Below are positions 1-6,274 of a DNA stretch of 44,195 nucleotides, in pieces (positions within the stretch are counted from its first letter, which is position 1; each line of letters begins with the position of its first letter). The notes under the pieces are model-generated. The model saw only the letters and a list, made by a program, of their open reading frames with translations, had not been told where the DNA came from and ran no database searches. The translations under genes were made by a program, and so were the position numbers. The stretch lies in the IMG/VR virus record IMGVR_UViG_2541047814_000002; one strand, written 5' to 3'. This DNA is from a virus. Its lineage: Duplodnaviria; Heunggongvirae; Uroviricota; Caudoviricetes.

Positions 1-91
1 CACAACATCCGAGGACAGCAACACCCGATACTTTTTCCTGGCTTCCAGCAACGGGGTTTCTTCCTCCGTTGCATATACAGCTCACCTTTTT

Positions 92-385
92 TCACCCACG
101 ATTAACCAACAGCCAGACCAGCAGACACGCCACCACCGGCACAGCAAAATCCATCAGGCTTGCCACATCCCAAGCTCGCGGATCAAAACCGCCCCACCAC
201 GGCATATTCATTCGCTTGCCATGCCCGAACATTTCAATCCAGCGATATTCTGCCTGGGTATGTTCACGCGCAATGAAGAACGTACAACCGGCTATCGCTC
301 CGTAAGCCCAGTTTCCGGTAAAAAGACCAACCAGTATCTGCGCAGCCACAGCACAAAGCGCATGAAGTAAGGGGCTTATATCCAT
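92..385 (-). CDS. hypothetical small membrane protein (97 aa) downstream of the tail fiber gene
   Basis: ORF with hydrophobic N- and C-terminal segments; start is 12 nt downstream of the stop of the preceding minus-strand ORF; no recognisable homology. Confidence 0.3.
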   Translation of the reverse strand: MDISPLLHALCAVAAQILVGLFTGNWAYGAIAGCTFFIAREHTQAEYRWIEMFGHGKRMNMPWWGGFDPRAWDVASLMDFAVPVVACLLVWLLVNRG

Positions 386-397
386 TATTTCCTCCTT

Positions 398-676
398 TCA
401 GCTCCATTCCCGAAGCGGTGTTTCCAGCTCCACGACATAATCAGAGAATACAGAAACATCAAACAAGTCATCAAGAATGCGAATGTTGACAAAATAACCG
501 TCATTCCGGACACAGACAGGTTCTCCCTCTTCTGTTACCCCTGTTTCTGTGTAGGTGAAACCAATTTCATCGACTAACAGTTTATTCTGGAGGTCTTCAT
601 CCTCCTCCCAGTCAAGAGATGACAGGAAGGCCTTAAACTGCAGTTTGTCATGAAACTTCAAAGTTAAATCTTTCAT
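398..676 (-). CDS. hypothetical acidic protein (92 aa), translationally coupled to the tail fiber gene
   Basis: Start codon overlaps the stf stop (673..676); occupies the position where lambda has tfa but is much shorter and unrecognised. Confidence 0.35.
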   Translation of the reverse strand: MKDLTLKFHDKLQFKAFLSSLDWEEDEDLQNKLLVDEIGFTYTETGVTEEGEPVCVRNDGYFVNIRILDDLFDVSVFSDYVVELETPLREWS

Positions 677-2733
677 ACGACCTCTTTTAATTGCCTGTCA
701 TTTAATTCTTTATGCCATATGCGGAAATTGCGAATATGGCCAAACAGATGTCGTTCTCCAGTATTCGTCTGCCCTCCAAATCGGATATTTTTATCAGCGG
801 TCACACCATTATATTCACAATAAACTTCATTAACCGCTTTACCATTTGTCACCACATGAAAGTGACCATCAGCTTTTGCAATACATCCAAATGTGGTTTT
901 CTCTGCAAATACATCTGTCGCTGCGCTATTAACATACAAGCCTGAAGGGTTTGACAGACTCATATATAACTTACCACTACCTCTGTTGATTGCTGCAATT
1001 GCTGATTGCCCGGTATTGGCTGCTGCTATATCCCACACGCGGGGTGCGGCGTTTGGTGCAATATCCCAGTTTTTATGAATCTCAAGTAAAAAAGTAAATG
1101 GTAACTTATAAAGATTATTTCTGGTGGGGATACTAACCAAATCACTGGCTCTTGTCGTTGCGCTGCCTCCTGAAATAATAAATGATGATACACACGGCCC
1201 ATTCTCTACTTGTGGGGTGGCAAGATAAATATAGTCACCAGATACTGTTGCCCCACCCCGCTCAGGAGAATACTGTATCTGAGAGCCTATTTTTAACTCA
1301 CCATCAATTGCCTGAATCGTTGCCTCTGCAAAAATCCAGCCTGTGGTCTTATCCTTCCTGACTCGTGCCGTAATTCTGCCGGCAGCCCCACCTGTCATAT
1401 TAATTTCAAGCGTTTGCGTATCAATGTACGCATCGCCAAGAAAAGTTGTTGCACTACCATCATACTTATCAAACCGTATACGTAACCTTACCTGTCGTTC
1501 TGTTTTAAAACGGCATGAGGTTGTCACGTACTTGTTATCGCCTGAGACATCAACTGACTTTGTTGCAGCAATTGATGCCATATTAATAGCCGAAGTTTGC
1601 CCAACCAGAGAATCGTTGCAGACAAACTTTCCATAAGTAAAACCAAAACTATCTGTCCCGGTTTCGGGCACATCCATGTTTGATGACTTCCCCCAGCTGG
1701 CTGGACTTTCCGAATTGAGCATGTAGTTCGTTCTTTGTCCCTCAATAAGCAGGCCATCACACTCAAATCGCGGCTCATTAATTTCCGCCGTTTTCAGTTC
1801 GCCAGATTTGTTGATATATGTTGCCGTTGATGCGCGACTGAAATTAACCTGTTTATCACTGGCGACCTGAACCACATCGTCACCAATAGCTATTTTTTTA
1901 TAGCCCGGAGAAAAACCCGCAATCATATCCAGTGAATCGTTAAACGGTATCCACACATCAGGCAGCGGCGGCACTATATTCGCATAGGGCTCTGCAGTCA
2001 CTTCCGCTGCGACTTCTGCGCGGTCTGCCGCCTTTTCAGCCCGTGTCGCTGCCGACAGAGCCTCATCCTTTTTCTGCCCGGCCTTTGTTGCGTCTGCTGC
2101 GGCCTCCCGCGCTTTTGTGGTGGCGACTCCGGCATTTTCAGCGGCTGACTCTGCATTACGGCGGGAAGCCTCTTCACTGTCTGCGGAGGCTTCTTCTGAC
2201 GCACGGGCATTTGTCTCTGAACGTTCTGCCGCTGTTGCTGCGTTTTGTGCGGCTGTTTTTGAAGAAGCTGCCGCTTTCGCGCTGTTACCTGCATTCGTCT
2301 CTGATGTTTTCGCCGCATTCCTGGACGATGCCGCTGCTGTTTCTGATTTCTTTGCTGCCGCTGCGCTCTGAGAGGCGGCTTCAGCGTTGCGTGCCACCTC
2401 TTCCACCATCTTTTCAAAACGATACAGTGCCTCCGGACGAACATCATCTTCTGTTGCAGCGCCCAGAAAATCATTCAATGTCCCCGGCTTAGAATCCTCA
2501 TACACGGTGATGGCCCCGGCATGTGAAGGCGGAAAACCTTCAACCAGCAGGATAACGCTGTACTGGCCATACTCGACATCCATGCTGTAACGTCCGGCTT
2601 CATCCGGATTTTCTGAGGCCACCGTGTTCACCACAACCGTGGTGCTGTTACGTTTTGCTTTGAGCTGAATGGTGCAGTTCTGTATCGGTTTTCCTGCACC
2701 GTCTTTCAGCACGCCTGAAATCTGTACTGCCAT
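673..2733 (-). CDS. stf: side tail fiber protein (Stf-like) with lambda Stf-type N-terminus, Ala/Ser-rich coiled-coil stalk and divergent C-terminal domain
   Basis: N-terminus MAVQISGVLKDGAGKPIQNCTIQLKAKRNSTTVVVNTV...GRYSMDVEYGQYSVIL matches remembered lambda Stf N-terminal domain; long low-complexity Ala-rich region; ATG at 2731..2733 (ORF track extends to a GTG at 2739). Confidence 0.8.
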   Translation of the reverse strand: MAVQISGVLKDGAGKPIQNCTIQLKAKRNSTTVVVNTVASENPDEAGRYSMDVEYGQYSVILLVEGFPPSHAGAITVYEDSKPGTLNDFLGAATEDDVRPEALYRFEKMVEEVARNAEAASQSAAAAKKSETAAASSRNAAKTSETNAGNSAKAAASSKTAAQNAATAAERSETNARASEEASADSEEASRRNAESAAENAGVATTKAREAAADATKAGQKKDEALSAATRAEKAADRAEVAAEVTAEPYANIVPPLPDVWIPFNDSLDMIAGFSPGYKKIAIGDDVVQVASDKQVNFSRASTATYINKSGELKTAEINEPRFECDGLLIEGQRTNYMLNSESPASWGKSSNMDVPETGTDSFGFTYGKFVCNDSLVGQTSAINMASIAATKSVDVSGDNKYVTTSCRFKTERQVRLRIRFDKYDGSATTFLGDAYIDTQTLEINMTGGAAGRITARVRKDKTTGWIFAEATIQAIDGELKIGSQIQYSPERGGATVSGDYIYLATPQVENGPCVSSFIISGGSATTRASDLVSIPTRNNLYKLPFTFLLEIHKNWDIAPNAAPRVWDIAAANTGQSAIAAINRGSGKLYMSLSNPSGLYVNSAATDVFAEKTTFGCIAKADGHFHVVTNGKAVNEVYCEYNGVTADKNIRFGGQTNTGERHLFGHIRNFRIWHKELNDRQLKEVV

Positions 2734-2743
2734 ATTCACTCCA

Positions 2744-2773
2744 CAAATAAAAAAGGCGCCATTTCTGGCGCCC
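2744..2773 (-). terminator. intrinsic terminator between J and stf
   Basis: Minus-strand hairpin GGCGCC-AGAAAT-GGCGCC (2755..2772) followed by TTTTTTATTT. Confidence 0.45.
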
Positions 2774-2791
2774 GTATCTGGGTTATAAAAT

Positions 2792-5700
2792 TCAACTGAT
2801 ACTGATACCGGCTGTAGATTTCTTCATCACAACAACAAGAAGGTCGCTGATACTGGTCGTTGGCGTCCAGTTATTAGCACCATATGAAGAAACATTGAAA
2901 GTCAGGGTGACATGGCCGTGTCCGGCAGGCATATCAATGACTGATGAAAATACCCTGCTGACATCCGTCGCGGGTTGCTGAAAGATTTCCTGTCCGTTCT
3001 TCAGTACCTGCAGCTTACAGGTTGAATACCAGTATGACTGTTGGTTGTTGCTGTTGAAGTTTTCATGCTTACCCCCACGAAACAGAACGGGGGGGACTAC
3101 TATCTGACGGTCAAAAGCCTGGTCATCGTACACAGTGACCGTTATTGTACCGCTGGCATAACTGCCATTTCTCGGAAAGGCTTTTCCCACCGTTTTGACA
3201 ATATCACCTTCAATCTGGTTAGCTGACAGTTTTCCCAGAATCCGACAGTTCTGATTAATCGTGACGTTGTTGAGCGTCCCGGAGTTCGCGTTCACGTTAC
3301 CGCTGATATCCGCATTTTTCGCAGAAAGTCGACCATCAGGTGTCAGTGAAAACGTTGGGGGATTGCCACCGCTGGTAATGGTGGGAGCCGTCAGATATTT
3401 CAGGAACACTTCGTTCATGAATATCTGATCGCCCTGCCCAACAAACATCGGCTTTGTGTTGCCATTCGCAGGATTAATCATCGCAATCCTGTCCGCCGCC
3501 AGCAGCACCTGACTCTGCATACCGTCAGGAGTATTCTCAACACCGGCACCAATACCCGCGATATAAAGGCGTCCGTCCTGCATCTGCTGCAGCTTCACAG
3601 CCCACATGCTGTTCAGGTTATTATTTGTATCAACCTGAACCTTCTGTATCTGCTGGATCGCTGCACTCTGGTCTTCCAGTTTCTTATTGACGGTCTGCGT
3701 GATTTCATTGCTGACACCCGTAATGGACGTCCTGATTTCAGCCAGGTCAGGCGCAAGCTGACCGTTATCAATCTGCGTCCACAACTCCTGAGCCAGATGG
3801 GTTTTCCCTATCTCTCCTTTGAAAAAATTCAGATAGCCGGATGCATCATCACTCGGCTGGCCAACAGCCTCCACAAATGCCGATTTGCCAACGGTGTTCA
3901 CACTGCGGATGTAAAAATAATAATCATGGCCCGGTTTGATATTGATACTGGCGGCTATCCAGTACAGCGCCGTGCCAAGATAGCGTGCTGTGGTTTCAAC
4001 CTGCCTGATATCCGCAATCCGCTTTTCCGAGAACCAGAACTCAAACTGTACCGTCGGATCATAAACCGCAAGATGCGGCGTGGCGGTTATCTGAAAATAC
4101 CCCGGTGTCAGCTCAATCTGCGACGGCGCTGCCGGTGCGGCAATCCGGAACGATACCGATGCCGGATCGCCCTGCTGCCCCCACGCATTTACCGCCCGGA
4201 CTGTCAGCCTGTAGTTCCCCAGCGCCAGTTGCCTGAAGCGGTATGTGGTTTCCGTCGTCCGGGCCGTGCTGACCAGCCGCTCACTGCCGTCATCCGCTGC
4301 CACGGTCAGGCGAAGCATAAAGCTCACCCCCTTCACCACCTTCGGCGTGTCCCAGCGCGCCAGCACCTGATATTCCCCGCTGTCTGCGGTGACTTCGGCA
4401 GTCAGGTGCTGCACCGCTGGCGGCGTGACACCATTCACCGTGCCGCTCTGGTCGCCGTCAAAGTGCGCCCCGTTATCCACGATGGCCTCTTTTTCCGGTA
4501 CATGCTGCACGGCAGTGATGGCATACGTGCCGTCATCGTTCTCACGGATACTCACACAGCGGAACAGGCGCTGGCGCAACGTTGGCAACTTCAGCCCCCA
4601 CACGCTGTATTCTGCAACGCCGTCAGGAACACGGCTCACTTTTACCTTCACGCCGTCGGTGACGGACTGGACCTCCACGCTGACCGGATTCCCCTGTCCG
4701 TCAGCCAGGCTTATCAGCGTGGTGCCGGAGGATGGCAGCGTGATTTCACGGTCGAGCGTCAGTGTCCGCGTCTGGTTGTTCACCGCCAGCACGCGCCCGC
4801 CGATGCTGATCCCCGCATAGTCATCATCACAGATTTCAATGACATCGCCCGGTACATGGCGAAGCCCTTCTGCACCCACGCTGAAGTCCACGGTCTGCGT
4901 TTCCAGCAGCTCCGTTTTAATCAGCCACAGCCCGGCGCGGTGTGCCTGCCCCCGGCTGGTACAGCCAAAGGCATCCATCTTCGTGACGTTACGACCGTAA
5001 CGGGCAATGGCCTGCGTGTCCTCCACAAGCTCTGTCGCCGTCTCCCAGCCGTTATCCGGGTCAATCCAGTTCACCTCAACGGCATTATGGCGGTCTTTCA
5101 GGGCGCTGAAGCTGTAGCGGAACGGCGCGCCATCATCCGGCATCACCACATTACTGCGGTTATAGGTCCACACCTTATCCGACGGTCGGTCCTGCACGAA
5201 TGTCAGCGTCTGCCCGTTCCATACCGGCATACAGCGCATCGCCGAGCAAAAATCACTGAGCACATCCCACGCCTTGCGCTGTGTGGTCAGGTACGCATTA
5301 CAGGTGATGCGCGGCTCCGTGCCGCCAAAGCCGTCCGGCACTGACTGGTCGCAATTCTGGCCGATGACATACAGCGCCCATTTATCCACATCTGCCGCAC
5401 CAAGACGTTTCCCCATGCCGTAGCGCGGATGGGTCAGCATATCCCACAGACACCAGGCCATGTTGTTGCTGTATGCTGGCTTAAACGTTCCGTCCCAGAT
5501 ACCGCTGTATTGCCGCGTCTGCGGGTTATAGTTCGACGGCACCTGCAGAATGCGCCCGCGAAGATGATAATTACGGCTCACCTGCTGGCTGCCGAACTGC
5601 TCCGAGTCCACCTGTACGCCGACCAGTGCCGTGTTCGGGTAGCACTGTTTCACATCGATGATTTCGGTGTATGACGACCAGAGCGTTTTGTTCTGCAACT

Positions 5701-6274
5701 GGTCTGTGGTGCTGTCCGGCGTCATCCTGCGCATCCGGATATTAAACGGGCGCGGCGGCAGGTTATCCACCACCACCGAGGCCAGATACTGCGACGTGGT
5801 TTTGCCCTTAATGGTGATGTCTTTTTCCGTCACCCAGCCACCGTTACGTTGAATCTGAACCAGCAGGCGGACTTCCGATGGATTCCTGTCCCCCTTTGAG
5901 GTGGTTTCCACCAGTGCCTGCACGCCGAAAGTAAAACGCAGACGGTCAATGTTTGCCGACGTGATGGTCCGGGTGATCGGCGTGTCATATTTCACTTCTG
6001 TACCGAGCACCGTCTCGGAGCCGGAGGATTCAAATCCCTCCGGCGGAGTCTGCTCCTGCTCACCGGCCCGGAACACCACCGTGACGCCGAATATATTGGT
6101 ATTCCCCTCACTGTCCAGCACCGGCGTACTGTTCAGCAGCACGCTTTTTAATCCATCCACCGGACCTTCAACCGGCCCTTCGCTGATGGCGTCTATCACG
6201 CTCAGCATCTGGGATGATTTCAGGTTGTCCTTCGCTTCGCGCGGGGTATGCCCCTTACTGCTGCCTTTACCCAT
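2792..6274 (-). CDS. J: tail tip host-specificity protein J
   Basis: 1160-aa ORF; N-terminus [20 protein letters not shown] and most of the length match remembered lambda J; C-terminal receptor-binding region diverges. Confidence 0.95.

What the first reader, a model, noticed from the sequence alone, without database searches (positions are those of the whole stretch)
673..2733. Stf-like side tail fiber with lambda-type N-terminus and divergent C-terminal domain, directly after J; lom and tfa absent
The first ~100 aa match the lambda Stf N-terminal domain, followed by a long Ala/Ser-rich stalk, which also generates long spurious antisense ORFs. The C-terminal ~400 aa are not lambda-like, consistent with a swapped receptor-binding module. 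In lambda, lom lies between J and stf and tfa follows stf. Here stf follows J after a terminator hairpin, and tfa is replaced by two small unrecognised ORFs (398..676 and 92..385), one predicted to be membrane-embedded.
Basis: partly seen in the sequence, partly recalled or inferred. Interest (0 to 1): 0.5.

Follow-up and report, generated by a model that had tools for sequence, protein, structure and literature searches.

The report
Phage 21 mosaic side tail fibre
This is the already-sequenced and annotated side tail fibre gene of coliphage 21, a lambda-type attachment domain fused to a sugar-binding-type tip module common in coliphages; the one open point is the role of a small uncharacterised gene that always follows it.

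Summary
Window 673-2733 (-) encodes a 686-aa side tail fibre directly after J. Its first ~115 aa are lambda Stf-like, followed by an Ala-rich stalk and a ~430-aa C-terminal module with no similarity to lambda Stf. No lom is present and no intact tfa.

It is not new. The 2.8 kb is 100% identical to phage 21 (annotated "side tail fiber") and occurs in about 450 of 5,426 complete E. coli genomes.

The C-module has two parts: a domain matching NCBIfam GTA_spike_fiber (the RcGTA head spike fibre, which binds capsule polysaccharide) and a probable LamG/ConA-like end domain. The same module forms the lateral tail fibres of T1-like, T5-like, Dhillon-, Queuo- and rV5-like coliphages and of P2-like prophages. 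It most likely gives reversible binding to a surface glycan; this is inferred.

The 92-aa ORF (398-676) is translationally coupled to stf. Its family follows fibre genes with this module in nearly every locus examined, so it is probably a fibre accessory factor. It has no similarity to Tfa and no solved structural relative.

The 97-aa membrane protein (92-385) also follows receptor-binding genes in unrelated phages.

A 20-24-codon tfa relic at window 1-72 marks the recombination scar. Interest is low to moderate.

The parts
2792..6274 (-). J, the central tail fibre / host-specificity protein (context; upstream neighbour of stf)
   Evidence: Pfam J-specific domains, including Ig_GpJ_C. Annotated as central tail fiber in phage 21.
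2744..2773 (-). Intrinsic-terminator-like hairpin (GGGCGCC-AGAAAT-GGCGCC) plus T-run between J and stf. The GGAG ribosome-binding site follows at 2739-2742.
   Evidence: Terminator scan, sequence, RNA fold -21.4 kcal/mol with z -4.5. Annotated as a terminator in OL657228.
673..2733 (-). stf, side tail fibre, 686 aa (stop codon at 673-675)
   Evidence: 100% identical to phage 21 CPT_21_22 'side tail fiber'. Matches PHROG 1419 and 3279 tail fibre families.
2452..2733 (-). Stf aa 1-94: lambda-type collar/attachment domain
   Evidence: PDB 9E7M chain Ta (Ur-lambda Stf N-domain), E 1e-49. PF08400. In Ur-lambda, 12 copies form a collar at the gpV/gpM junction (PMC12617516).
1984..2388 (-). Stf aa 116-250: Ala/Ser/Thr/Glu-rich stalk, presumed trimeric coiled coil. 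It is the source of the spurious alternative-frame ORFs.
   Evidence: 36% Ala. Compositionally similar to the lambda Stf stalk, 53% identity over 107 aa. Alternative-frame ORFs listed. No tandem DNA repeat.
1099..1968 (-). Stf aa 256-545: conserved junction PLPDVWIPFNDSLDM followed by the GTA-head-spike-fibre-like domain
   Evidence: NCBIfam NF048003, 55.3 bits against a cut-off of 36. RcGTA Rcc01080 at E 1e-9 with the single sequence and 2e-70 with a family profile. E217 gp45 and Pa193 gp46 at about E 1e-21. Alignments.
676..1098 (-). Stf aa 546-686: variable distal domain, probably a LamG/ConA-like jelly roll, ending in the conserved motif GHIRNFRIWHKELNDRQL
   Evidence: Pfam Laminin_G_3 at 23.9-25.1 bits, below the 27.6 cut-off. 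Only 40-48% identity between end-domain types while the middle domain stays at 79% or more. The terminal motif is shared with classical LamG_3 tails.
398..676 (-). gp23 (phage 21 CPT_21_23), 92 aa, acidic (pI 4.1), soluble. Its start overlaps the stf stop (ATGA).
   Evidence: Sequence. PHROG 1361. Family motif M[KR]D..L[KR]F...GY[FH]VN.R...P.R.WA. Directly follows a fibre gene carrying the module in 103 of 110 loci. AF2 model pLDDT 87.9.
92..385 (-). gp24 (phage 21 CPT_21_24), 97 aa, small membrane protein, 12 nt after gp23 with an AGGAGG ribosome-binding site
   Evidence: Hydropathy maxima at aa 1-25 and 73-95. Annotated with 2 TMDs. PHROG 1443. Homologues sit directly after the tailspike in P22-like JEP4 and after the fibre assembly gene in phiHAP-1.
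1..72 (-). Relic of the 3' end of a tfa (tail fibre assembly) gene, running off the window start
   Evidence: tblastn against lambda Tfa aa 156-175: 80% identity, E 2e-4. Translations. The same relic, starting at Tfa aa 156, follows gp24 in 29 of 80 related loci.

Best explanation
Window 673-2733 (-) is the intact side tail fibre gene of a phage-21-type lambdoid prophage. It is a mosaic protein.

- Residues 1-94 are the lambda Stf collar domain that docks the fibre at the tail-tube/tip junction. This is shown by homology to a solved structure.
- Residues ~116-250 form a short Ala-rich stalk, inferred to be a coiled coil.
- Residues ~256-686 are a two-domain distal cassette: a GTA-head-spike-fibre-like domain plus a probable LamG/ConA-like end domain. 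This cassette replaces lambda's gp37-like distal rod and OmpC-binding tip.

The same cassette is the distal part of the lateral tail fibres of T1-like, T5-like, Dhillon-, Queuo- and rV5-like coliphages and of P2-like prophages.

By analogy with the capsule-binding RcGTA head spike fibre, and with the O-antigen-targeting role assigned to lateral fibres of T1/T5-like phages, it most likely mediates reversible, non-essential primary adsorption to a surface polysaccharide (LPS O-antigen or core, or capsule). This would hold the virion near the cell while J finds its terminal receptor. That step is inferred, not shown.

The cassette arrived by recombination. The left junction is at the conserved PLPDVWIPFNDSL motif and the right junction is inside tfa at about Tfa aa 156, where a relic remains.

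The cassette carries its own downstream genes in place of tfa:
- gp23 (92 aa, cytoplasmic, translationally coupled to stf) is most likely a dedicated fibre accessory factor, either a folding/trimerisation helper or a small fibre-bound subunit.
- gp24 (97 aa, membrane) is a separate small membrane protein of unknown role that recurs after receptor-binding genes. Possible roles are exclusion or receptor masking.
For: Identity and annotation:
- 100% match to phage 21 and PhiR63_2.
- Found in 450 of 5,426 complete E. coli genomes.

N-terminal domain:
-. Its collar function in Ur-lambda is described in PMC12617516.

C-module family:
- NF048003 scored above its cut-off.
- A family profile hits RcGTA Rcc01080 at 2e-70, E217 gp45 at 3e-22, Pa193 gp46 at 2e-21 and the Sf11 Dit appendage at 6e-12.
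- Weak Laminin_G_3 and CBM40 signals fall on the end domain.

Glycan role of relatives:
- The RcGTA head fibre binds capsule polysaccharide (PMC7296036; PMC10218006).
- Lateral fibres of Drexlerviridae and T5-like phages are assigned to O-antigen recognition (PMC8594841).
- The window Stf is 53% identical over 551 aa to the BASEL phage KarlJaspers lateral tail fibre (about 90% over the last ~170 aa by my reading of the alignment) and 37% identical to a T5-like 'Stf'.
- The module is present in 228 phage records.

Mosaic joints:
- The conserved junction and alternative N-termini (P2 H-type, PF03406) are.

gp23 linkage:
- ATGA overlap with stf.
- Adjacent to the fibre gene in all 80 close loci that have enough DNA.
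- 103 of 110 gp23-family ORFs follow a module-bearing fibre. Of the 7 others, 3 lack upstream DNA. Two of the remaining four were read (L164, L170) and both have the domain; L167 and L168 gave the same hit values as L164 and were not read.
- Homologues sit next to lateral or side tail fibre genes in 145 phage records.
- In a P2-like prophage, the H-fusion is followed by gp23 and gp24, with no ORF of 80 aa or more in the gpG position.
Against: - No receptor or binding data exist for this fibre type.
- The AF2 model of the C-module failed (pLDDT 46.6), so neither the fold nor the absence of a catalytic site is shown.
- Laminin_G_3 scores below Pfam's cut-off.
- gp23 sequence types do not track the fibre tip types one-to-one. 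gp23 type 1 pairs with three tip types. KarlJaspers has about 90% the same tip (my reading of the alignment) but a gp23 that is only 51% identical.
- Only 6-7 of 44 diverse bacterial loci with the GTA-spike-like domain have a gp23-family gene, and R. capsulatus has none. gp23 is therefore not obligatory for that domain.
- Adjacency could reflect hitch-hiking within one recombination cassette.
Confidence: 0.6

Rival explanations
1. The distal module is an enzyme (a polysaccharide depolymerase or glycanase, as in tailspikes) rather than a passive lectin-like binder.
For: The Pfam clan of the weak end-domain hit is 'ConA-like lectin/glucanases'. Many lateral fibres of coliphages carry glycan-hydrolysing domains (PMC8594841). 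Three depolymerase PDB chains gave weak hits (E 0.08-0.17).
Against: The depolymerase hits fall only on the low-complexity stalk (aa 107-162) and are not significant. No beta-helix, hydrolase, esterase or lyase family hits the module in Pfam, NCBIfam or PDB. The only characterised relative, the RcGTA head fibre, is described as a binder.
Confidence: 0.1
2. The fibre tip recognises an outer-membrane protein (as lambda Stf does with OmpC), not a glycan.
For: Lambda Stf and many T-even fibres use porins (PMC12617516; PMC8594841). Phage 21 was propagated on rough K-12-type laboratory strains (PMC9119081).
Against: The tip is unrelated to lambda's. Its relatives are capsule-binding or assigned to O-antigen. 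The high tip diversity (40-48% identity between types) resembles serotype tracking.
Confidence: 0.15
3. gp23 and gp24 are cargo genes (superinfection exclusion or lysogenic conversion) that merely travel in the same recombination cassette and have no role in fibre biogenesis.
For: Neither resembles Tfa. gp23 types are not matched to tip types. Most remote fibres with the domain lack gp23. gp24 also follows a P22-type tailspike in the slot just upstream of int, which holds conversion genes in P22 itself (background knowledge).
Against: gp23 is cytoplasmic and acidic, with no signal or TM segment, and is translationally coupled to stf. It is retained in strictly virulent T1-, T5- and Dhillon-type phages, where lysogenic conversion is irrelevant. 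No PADLOC defence family matches either protein. For gp24 alone this rival remains quite plausible.
Confidence: 0.25
4. The gene is a decaying, non-functional remnant like the frameshifted stf of laboratory lambda.
For: Laboratory lambda carries a broken stf. Some relatives have IS elements inserted in this stf (L035-L037).
Against: The reading frame is intact over 686 aa. It is identical in hundreds of genomes: a 90%-identity cluster of 2,232 sequences and 326 E. coli records at 99% identity or more. It has a ribosome-binding site and coupled downstream genes.
Confidence: 0.03

Closest known systems
Bacteriophage lambda (Ur-lambda) side tail fibre Stf with its chaperone Tfa
   Same: Same gene position downstream of J. 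The N-terminal collar domain aligns to lambda Stf aa 1-94 at E 1e-49, and identity is 74% over aa 1-158. An Ala/Ser-rich stalk follows. A relic of tfa lies downstream.
   Different: The stalk is much shorter. Lambda's hinge, gp37-like distal rod and OmpC-binding tip are absent and replaced by an unrelated ~430-aa module. There is no lom and no intact tfa; gp23 and gp24 occupy the tfa position.
Lateral tail fibres of virulent coliphages: Drexlerviridae (e.g. BASEL Bas06 KarlJaspers), T5-like Markadamsvirinae, Dhillonvirus, Queuovirinae, rV5-like
   Same: Same distal cassette: 53% identity over 551 aa to KarlJaspers (about 90% over the last ~170 aa by reading of the alignment) and 37% to T5-like EC142. 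The same conserved junction motif is present. A gp23-family gene lies directly downstream, often followed by a second fibre gene with a Peptidase_S74 chaperone domain.
   Different: The N-terminal attachment domains differ, because they dock to different tails. Those phages are virulent. The window lacks the second S74-type fibre gene that many of them carry, as do many E. coli prophages.
RcGTA head spike fibre Rcc01080 (NCBIfam NF048003 GTA_spike_fiber)
   Same: Homologous ~240-aa domain (E 1e-9 with the single sequence, 2e-70 with a family profile). It is the only relative with an experimentally assigned activity, binding of capsular polysaccharide.
   Different: Rcc01080 is a monomer attached to capsid vertices through an N-terminal (I/L)-G repeat. 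It has only ~40 aa after the domain (no LamG-like end domain), and no gp23-family gene was found next to it (L217).
Peripheral domains of E217 gp45 / Pa193 gp46 baseplate wedge proteins and of the Sf11 distal tail protein gp17
   Same: Same domain family by profile search (E 3e-22, 2e-21, 6e-12). In each case it is a surface-exposed appendage of the adsorption apparatus.
   Different: The domain is inserted in baseplate or Dit proteins rather than at the end of a fibre. Its function there is undescribed; the Sf11 authors call it an appendage of unknown function.
Tfa / P2 gpG / Mu U tail-fibre assembly chaperones (comparison for gp23)
   Same: The gene sits immediately downstream of the fibre gene. 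It occupies the slot where tfa (lambdoid) or G (P2-like) normally sits.
   Different: No sequence similarity, about half the size, a different predicted fold (small beta-alpha-alpha-beta-beta) and no solved relative. Any chaperone activity is untested.

Membership tests
Lambda-type side tail fibre (Stf; Pfam PF08400 N-terminal family) | N-terminal collar domain homologous to lambda Stf aa 1-94 | tested here: met
   PF08400 E 1e-68, 230 bits against a cut-off of 26.6. PDB 9E7M E 1e-49. 74% identity over 158 aa.
Lambda-type side tail fibre (Stf; Pfam PF08400 N-terminal family) | Encoded in the late operon downstream of the central fibre gene J | tested here: met
   J at 2792-6274 (-) and stf at 673-2733 (-), 58 nt apart.
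Lambda-type side tail fibre (Stf; Pfam PF08400 N-terminal family) | Lambda-like distal rod and receptor-binding tip, with a dependent Tfa chaperone gene | tested here: not met
   No similarity to lambda orf-314 or Tfa apart from a 20-24-codon tfa relic. The protein is therefore a member by its N-terminal half only.
Lambda-type side tail fibre (Stf; Pfam PF08400 N-terminal family) | Trimeric fibres visible on the virion that accelerate adsorption | not testable with these tools
   Needs EM and adsorption assays on phage 21 or PhiR63_2.
GTA head-spike-fibre domain family (NCBIfam NF048003) | HMM score above the curated cut-off | tested here: met
   55.3 bits against a cut-off of 36, aa 329-529. 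Reciprocal profile hit to Rcc01080 at 2e-70.
GTA head-spike-fibre domain family (NCBIfam NF048003) | Family motifs PRF[DE], GLLIE.QRTN, (N)GW, and [YL]W/ATPQ.E.G...S[YF]I..(..)TRA.D | tested here: met
   The window has EPRFE, GLLIEGQRTN, TGWIF and IYLATPQVENGPCVSSFIISGGSATTRASD. The last two are divergent but align.
GTA head-spike-fibre domain family (NCBIfam NF048003) | Attachment to capsid vertices (being a head spike) | tested here: not met
   The N-terminus is the lambda tail-collar domain, not the (I/L)-G repeat that binds the head-spike base. The PGAP name 'head spike fiber domain-containing' describes a domain, not a location.
GTA head-spike-fibre domain family (NCBIfam NF048003) | Binding of surface polysaccharide | not testable with these tools
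   Known only for RcGTA (PMC7296036, PMC10218006).
Laminin_G_3 / ConA-like lectin-glucanase superfamily (end domain, aa 546-686) | Pfam PF13385 score above the gathering threshold, or a jelly-roll fold | tested here: inconclusive
   23.9-25.1 bits against 27.6. Close relatives P0073 and P0087 carry precomputed PF13385 hits. The terminal motif resembles LamG_3 tails. The AF2 model was too poor to test the fold.
Tailspike/depolymerase receptor-binding proteins | Beta-helix or other catalytic domain | tested here: not met
   No such family hits in Pfam, NCBIfam or PDB. The depolymerase hits at E about 0.1 lie in the Ala-rich stalk.
Tfa/gpG-type tail fibre assembly chaperones (for gp23) | Sequence homology to Tfa/gpG (Pfam Caudo_TAP and related families) | tested here: not met
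   No BLASTP alignment to lambda Tfa. No Pfam or NCBIfam family.
Tfa/gpG-type tail fibre assembly chaperones (for gp23) | Gene immediately downstream of, and co-inherited with, the fibre gene | tested here: met
   ATGA overlap. Adjacent in 103 of 110 loci. Occupies the G slot in a P2-like prophage.
Tfa/gpG-type tail fibre assembly chaperones (for gp23) | Required for folding or trimerisation of the fibre tip | not testable with these tools
   Needs co-expression or deletion experiments.

The most novel reading that the evidence does not exclude
The gp23 family (PHROG 1361/18574; ~90-100 aa; motif M[KR]D..L[KR]F...GY[FH]VN.R...P.R.WA) may be a previously unrecognised class of tail-fibre accessory protein, either a chaperone or a small fibre-bound subunit. 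It would be dedicated to fibres built on the GTA-spike-like/LamG cassette and would functionally replace Tfa/gpG in lambdoid, P2-like, T1-like and T5-like phages.
Probability: 0.4. Interest if true: 0.45.

Novelty: already known. Interest (0 to 1): 0.25.

Why it matters
As a finding it is ordinary. Tail-fibre mosaicism in lambdoid phages is textbook, and this exact gene is already deposited and annotated.

The practical value is modest. The analysis defines the joints of a portable distal fibre cassette: the left joint at PLPDVWIPFNDSL and the right joint at Tfa aa ~156. It also shows the cassette travels with a small conserved gene, gp23. Anyone grafting this tip onto lambda-based delivery particles or other engineered phages would probably need to co-transfer gp23.

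The cassette occurs in about 8% of complete E. coli genomes and in many therapeutic-type coliphages. Its receptor and the roles of gp23 and gp24 are still untested.

Tried and rejected
1. AlphaFold2 of Stf aa 250-686 with a 19-sequence alignment (72-100% identity) gave mean pLDDT 46.6. I did not use it for fold searches, so the lectin-versus-enzyme question could not be settled structurally.

3. I first thought gp23 co-varies with the fibre tip (note 2). Typing at 85% identity refuted a one-to-one relation, and KarlJaspers is a further counter-example. That idea is withdrawn.

4. Large PKD- and TPR-repeat proteins hit the gp23 profile (E down to 5e-13). Pfam scans show them to be repeat proteins, and I judge the hits to be summed motif matches rather than fusions.

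5. I tested whether gp23 accompanies the RcGTA head spike fibre. It does not in R. capsulatus (L217), and it is present in only 6-7 of 44 diverse loci.

6. PADLOC defence models gave no hit for gp23 or gp24.

7. The search for related loci failed on the broad gp23 alignment in both collections. One single-protein scan found nothing.

8. No tandem DNA repeat underlies the stalk.

9. Literature searches found no receptor or functional study of this Stf type or of gp23/gp24.
Full report
**What is there.** Window 1-2800 is 100% identical to Escherichia phage 21 (OL657228.1, 19167-21966) and to phages ev017 and PhiR63_2. In the phage 21 record the three minus-strand genes are annotated as follows:
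- CPT_21_22 'side tail fiber' (window 673-2733)
- CPT_21_23 'hypothetical protein' (398-676)
- CPT_21_24 'putative membrane protein', 2 TMDs (92-385)

The rest of the window (20000-44195) is 100% identical to PhiR63_2 rather than phage 21. The window is therefore a prophage or phage with phage-21-type tail genes in a different early-region background. The same 2.8 kb is present at 80% coverage or more in 450 of 5,426 complete E. coli genomes, with 326 records at 99% identity or more.

**Check of the observation.**
- The stf ORF runs 673-2739 with a GTG start. The annotated ATG at 2733 gives MAVQISGV..., matching lambda's MAVKISGV.
- Residues 1-131 match PF08400 at E 1e-68. Residues 1-94 match the solved Ur-lambda Stf collar domain (PDB 9E7M) at E 1e-49.
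- In Ur-lambda this domain forms a 12-copy collar at the gpV/gpM junction, with three collar domains feeding each of four trimeric fibres (PMC12617516).
- Residues 116-250 are 36% Ala in a local GC peak. This produces the long alternative-frame ORFs on both strands. Lambda has the same artefact annotated as orf206b.
- The last ~430 aa have no similarity to lambda orf-314.
- J stops at 2792. A GC-rich hairpin (2773-2754) with a T-run, then a GGAG ribosome-binding site, precede stf.
- No lom homologue occurs anywhere in the window. In contrast, 41 of 80 related loci do carry a lom homologue between J and stf, so its absence is a lineage trait.

**One correction.** tfa is not completely gone. Window 72..13 (-) encodes ATEEETPLLEARKKYRVLLS, which is 80% identical to lambda Tfa aa 156-175 (E 2e-4). 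The same relic begins at exactly Tfa aa 156 and usually extends to the Tfa C-terminus. It follows the gp24 gene in 29 of 80 related loci. In phage 21 it is cut short where sitD begins, immediately beyond window position 1. This is the right-hand scar of the module swap.

**Anatomy of the C-terminal module.**
- Alignment of relatives shows an invariant junction, PLPDVWIPFNDSLDM (aa 256-270). After it the sequence is shared by proteins with quite different N-termini: lambda Stf type, P2 gpH type (PF12571), and PF03406 type.
- Residues ~297-543 match NCBIfam NF048003 'GTA_spike_fiber' at 55.3 bits, cut-off 36. They match the RcGTA head spike fibre Rcc01080 at E 1e-9.
- A profile built from diverse family members raises the Rcc01080 match to 2e-70. 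It also detects the domain in E217 baseplate protein gp45 (aa 199-392, PDB 8ENV/8EON, 3e-22), Pa193 gp46 (9B45, 2e-21) and the Sf11 distal tail protein gp17 (9OCC, aa 217-404, 6e-12).
- In the RcGTA entries only residues 2-10 of the fibre are modelled (PMC7296036). In Sf11 the matching region is an unmodelled 'extra appendage of unknown function' (PMC12724387). The E217 and Pa193 entries are therefore the likely solved examples of the fold.
- Residues 546-686 are the variable end. Tip types are only 40-48% identical to each other, while the middle domain stays at 79% identity or more.
- The end domain scores just under Pfam's threshold for Laminin_G_3 (ConA-like lectin/glucanase). Its terminal motif (GHIRNFRIWHKELNDRQL) aligns with classical LamG_3 tails in remote relatives.

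**Distribution.**
- The module occurs in 228 phage records. These include lambdoid phages, T1-like Drexlerviridae, Dhillonvirus, Queuovirinae, T5-like Markadamsvirinae and rV5-like myophages, with remote copies in Aeromonas, Synechococcus and Rhodobacter phages.
- The lateral tail fibre of BASEL phage KarlJaspers is 53% identical over 551 aa, and about 90% over the last ~170 aa by my reading of the alignment. A T5-like 'Stf' is 37% identical.

**Likely function.** The only relative with an assigned activity is the RcGTA head spike fibre, which binds capsular polysaccharide. For T5-like phages, lateral fibres bind specific O-antigens as a non-essential primary receptor. The BASEL authors consider the same likely, though never directly demonstrated, for Drexlerviridae (PMC8594841). 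No enzymatic family hits the module.

I therefore infer that this fibre gives reversible primary adsorption to a surface glycan. The variable LamG-like end would set the specificity. This is inference by homology, and no experiment on this fibre type was found. My attempt to predict the structure failed for lack of alignment depth (pLDDT 46.6), so an enzymatic tip is not excluded.

**The two downstream ORFs: gp23.**
- gp23 is 92 aa, pI 4.1, with no hydrophobic segment. Its ATG overlaps the stf stop codon (ATGA).
- It belongs to a well-defined family with invariant D3, L6, F8, G60, N64, R66, R89 and W91. An exhaustive search found 97 cluster representatives at E 1e-3 or better. A few of those are repeat-protein artefacts.
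- All named members are 'hypothetical'. PHROGs 1361 and 18574 have no assigned function.
- In all 80 close loci with enough DNA, it lies directly after stf.
- Across more distant viral contigs, 103 of 110 gp23-family ORFs lie directly after an ORF carrying the fibre module. Of the 7 others, 3 lack upstream DNA. I read two of the remaining four (L164, L170) and both have the domain; L167 and L168 gave the same hit values as L164 and were not read. One of the two read has a leucine-rich-repeat end instead of the LamG-like end.
- Homologues sit beside lateral or side tail fibre genes in 145 phage records, including strictly virulent T1-like, T5-like and Dhillon-type phages.
- In a P2-like prophage the gene order is V-W-J-I-H(fusion)-gp23-gp24, with no ORF of 80 aa or more in the gpG position.

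This conserved, translationally coupled adjacency across phage families argues for a functional tie to the fibre. There are limits:
- gp23 types do not map one-to-one onto tip types.
- KarlJaspers shares the tip but has a gp23 only 51% identical.
- Only 6-7 of 44 diverse bacterial loci with the domain have a gp23-family gene, and the R. capsulatus locus has none.
- gp23 has no similarity to Tfa. Its confident AF2 model (pLDDT 87.9; beta-alpha-alpha-beta-beta) has no solved relative.

**The two downstream ORFs: gp24.**
- gp24 is 97 aa with hydrophobic N- and C-terminal segments. It stays 78-100% identical across the related loci regardless of fibre type.
- It is sometimes separated from gp23 by an extra fibre gene carrying a Peptidase_S74 chaperone domain.
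- Its homologues also lie directly after the tailspike gene of P22-like phage JEP4, and after the fibre assembly gene of Halomonas myophage phiHAP-1.
- It is therefore a recurrent small membrane protein encoded after receptor-binding genes. Its role is unknown. No PADLOC model matches it.

**Verdict.** The feature is an already sequenced, annotated and widespread mosaic side tail fibre.

The residual novelty is small. It lies in the uncharacterised gp23 family as a probable fibre accessory factor, and in the unknown receptor of this common cassette.

Noticed in passing
window 1-72 (-), continuing beyond the window start: A 20-24-codon relic of the 3' end of a tfa gene (lambda Tfa aa 156-175, 80% identity) lies just downstream of gp24. 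The same relic, starting at Tfa aa 156, follows gp24 in 29 of 80 related loci. This marks a recurrent recombination joint.
   Followed up: yes
window 92-385 (-); L261 3989-4288; L262 3501-3806: Homologues of the small membrane protein gp24 lie directly after the tailspike gene of P22-like phage JEP4 (77% identity). A remote one (39% identity) lies after the tail fibre assembly gene of Halomonas myophage phiHAP-1. Function is unknown.
   Followed up: partly
L048 5602-6642; L085 5315-6313; L263 3770-4447; L264 4289-6019: In many related loci a second fibre-like gene with a C-terminal Peptidase_S74 (intramolecular chaperone) domain follows the gp23 homologue. In the E. coli prophage loci it lies between gp23 and gp24. 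The window and phage 21 lack it.
   Followed up: partly
L083 999-3415 (phage 1W); L035-L037: In phages 1W, 3W, 4A7 and Lambda_4C10 the match to this stf stops about 44 codons short of the 3' end. In 1W, three 'mobile element protein' genes (IS-type) lie in that gap, separating stf from gp23 and gp24. L035-L037 show a similar truncation.
   Followed up: no
L048 7206-7796 (-): A Pin/Hin-type DNA invertase gene lies just beyond gp24 and the tfa relic in some related prophages. This recalls the invertible fibre segments of e14, Mu and P1. I did not look for inversion sites.
   Followed up: no
window 20000-44195: This half of the window is 100% identical to phage PhiR63_2 (PV340574.1, from E. coli ECOR13), which was the top hit; phage 21 was not among the six listed. 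The element therefore looks like a mosaic of phage-21-type tail genes with a different early region. Features under the match include an OmpD/NmpC-type porin gene.
   Followed up: partly
just outside window position 1 (L001 2551-6000): In phage 21 the convergent sitABCD iron/manganese transporter operon ends immediately beyond the window start. It truncates the tfa relic.
   Followed up: partly
L003-L082 (e.g. L075 2272-2868): 41 of 80 related prophage loci with this Stf type carry a lom homologue (about 45% identical to lambda Lom) between J and stf. The lack of lom in the window is therefore lineage-specific, not a property of this fibre type.
   Followed up: yes
window 69-305 (+): A 78-aa TTG-start ORF lies antisense to gp24. 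A longer antisense ORF with a nearly identical stretch is present in L048. I take it to be a by-product of the conserved gp24 sequence rather than a gene.
   Followed up: no
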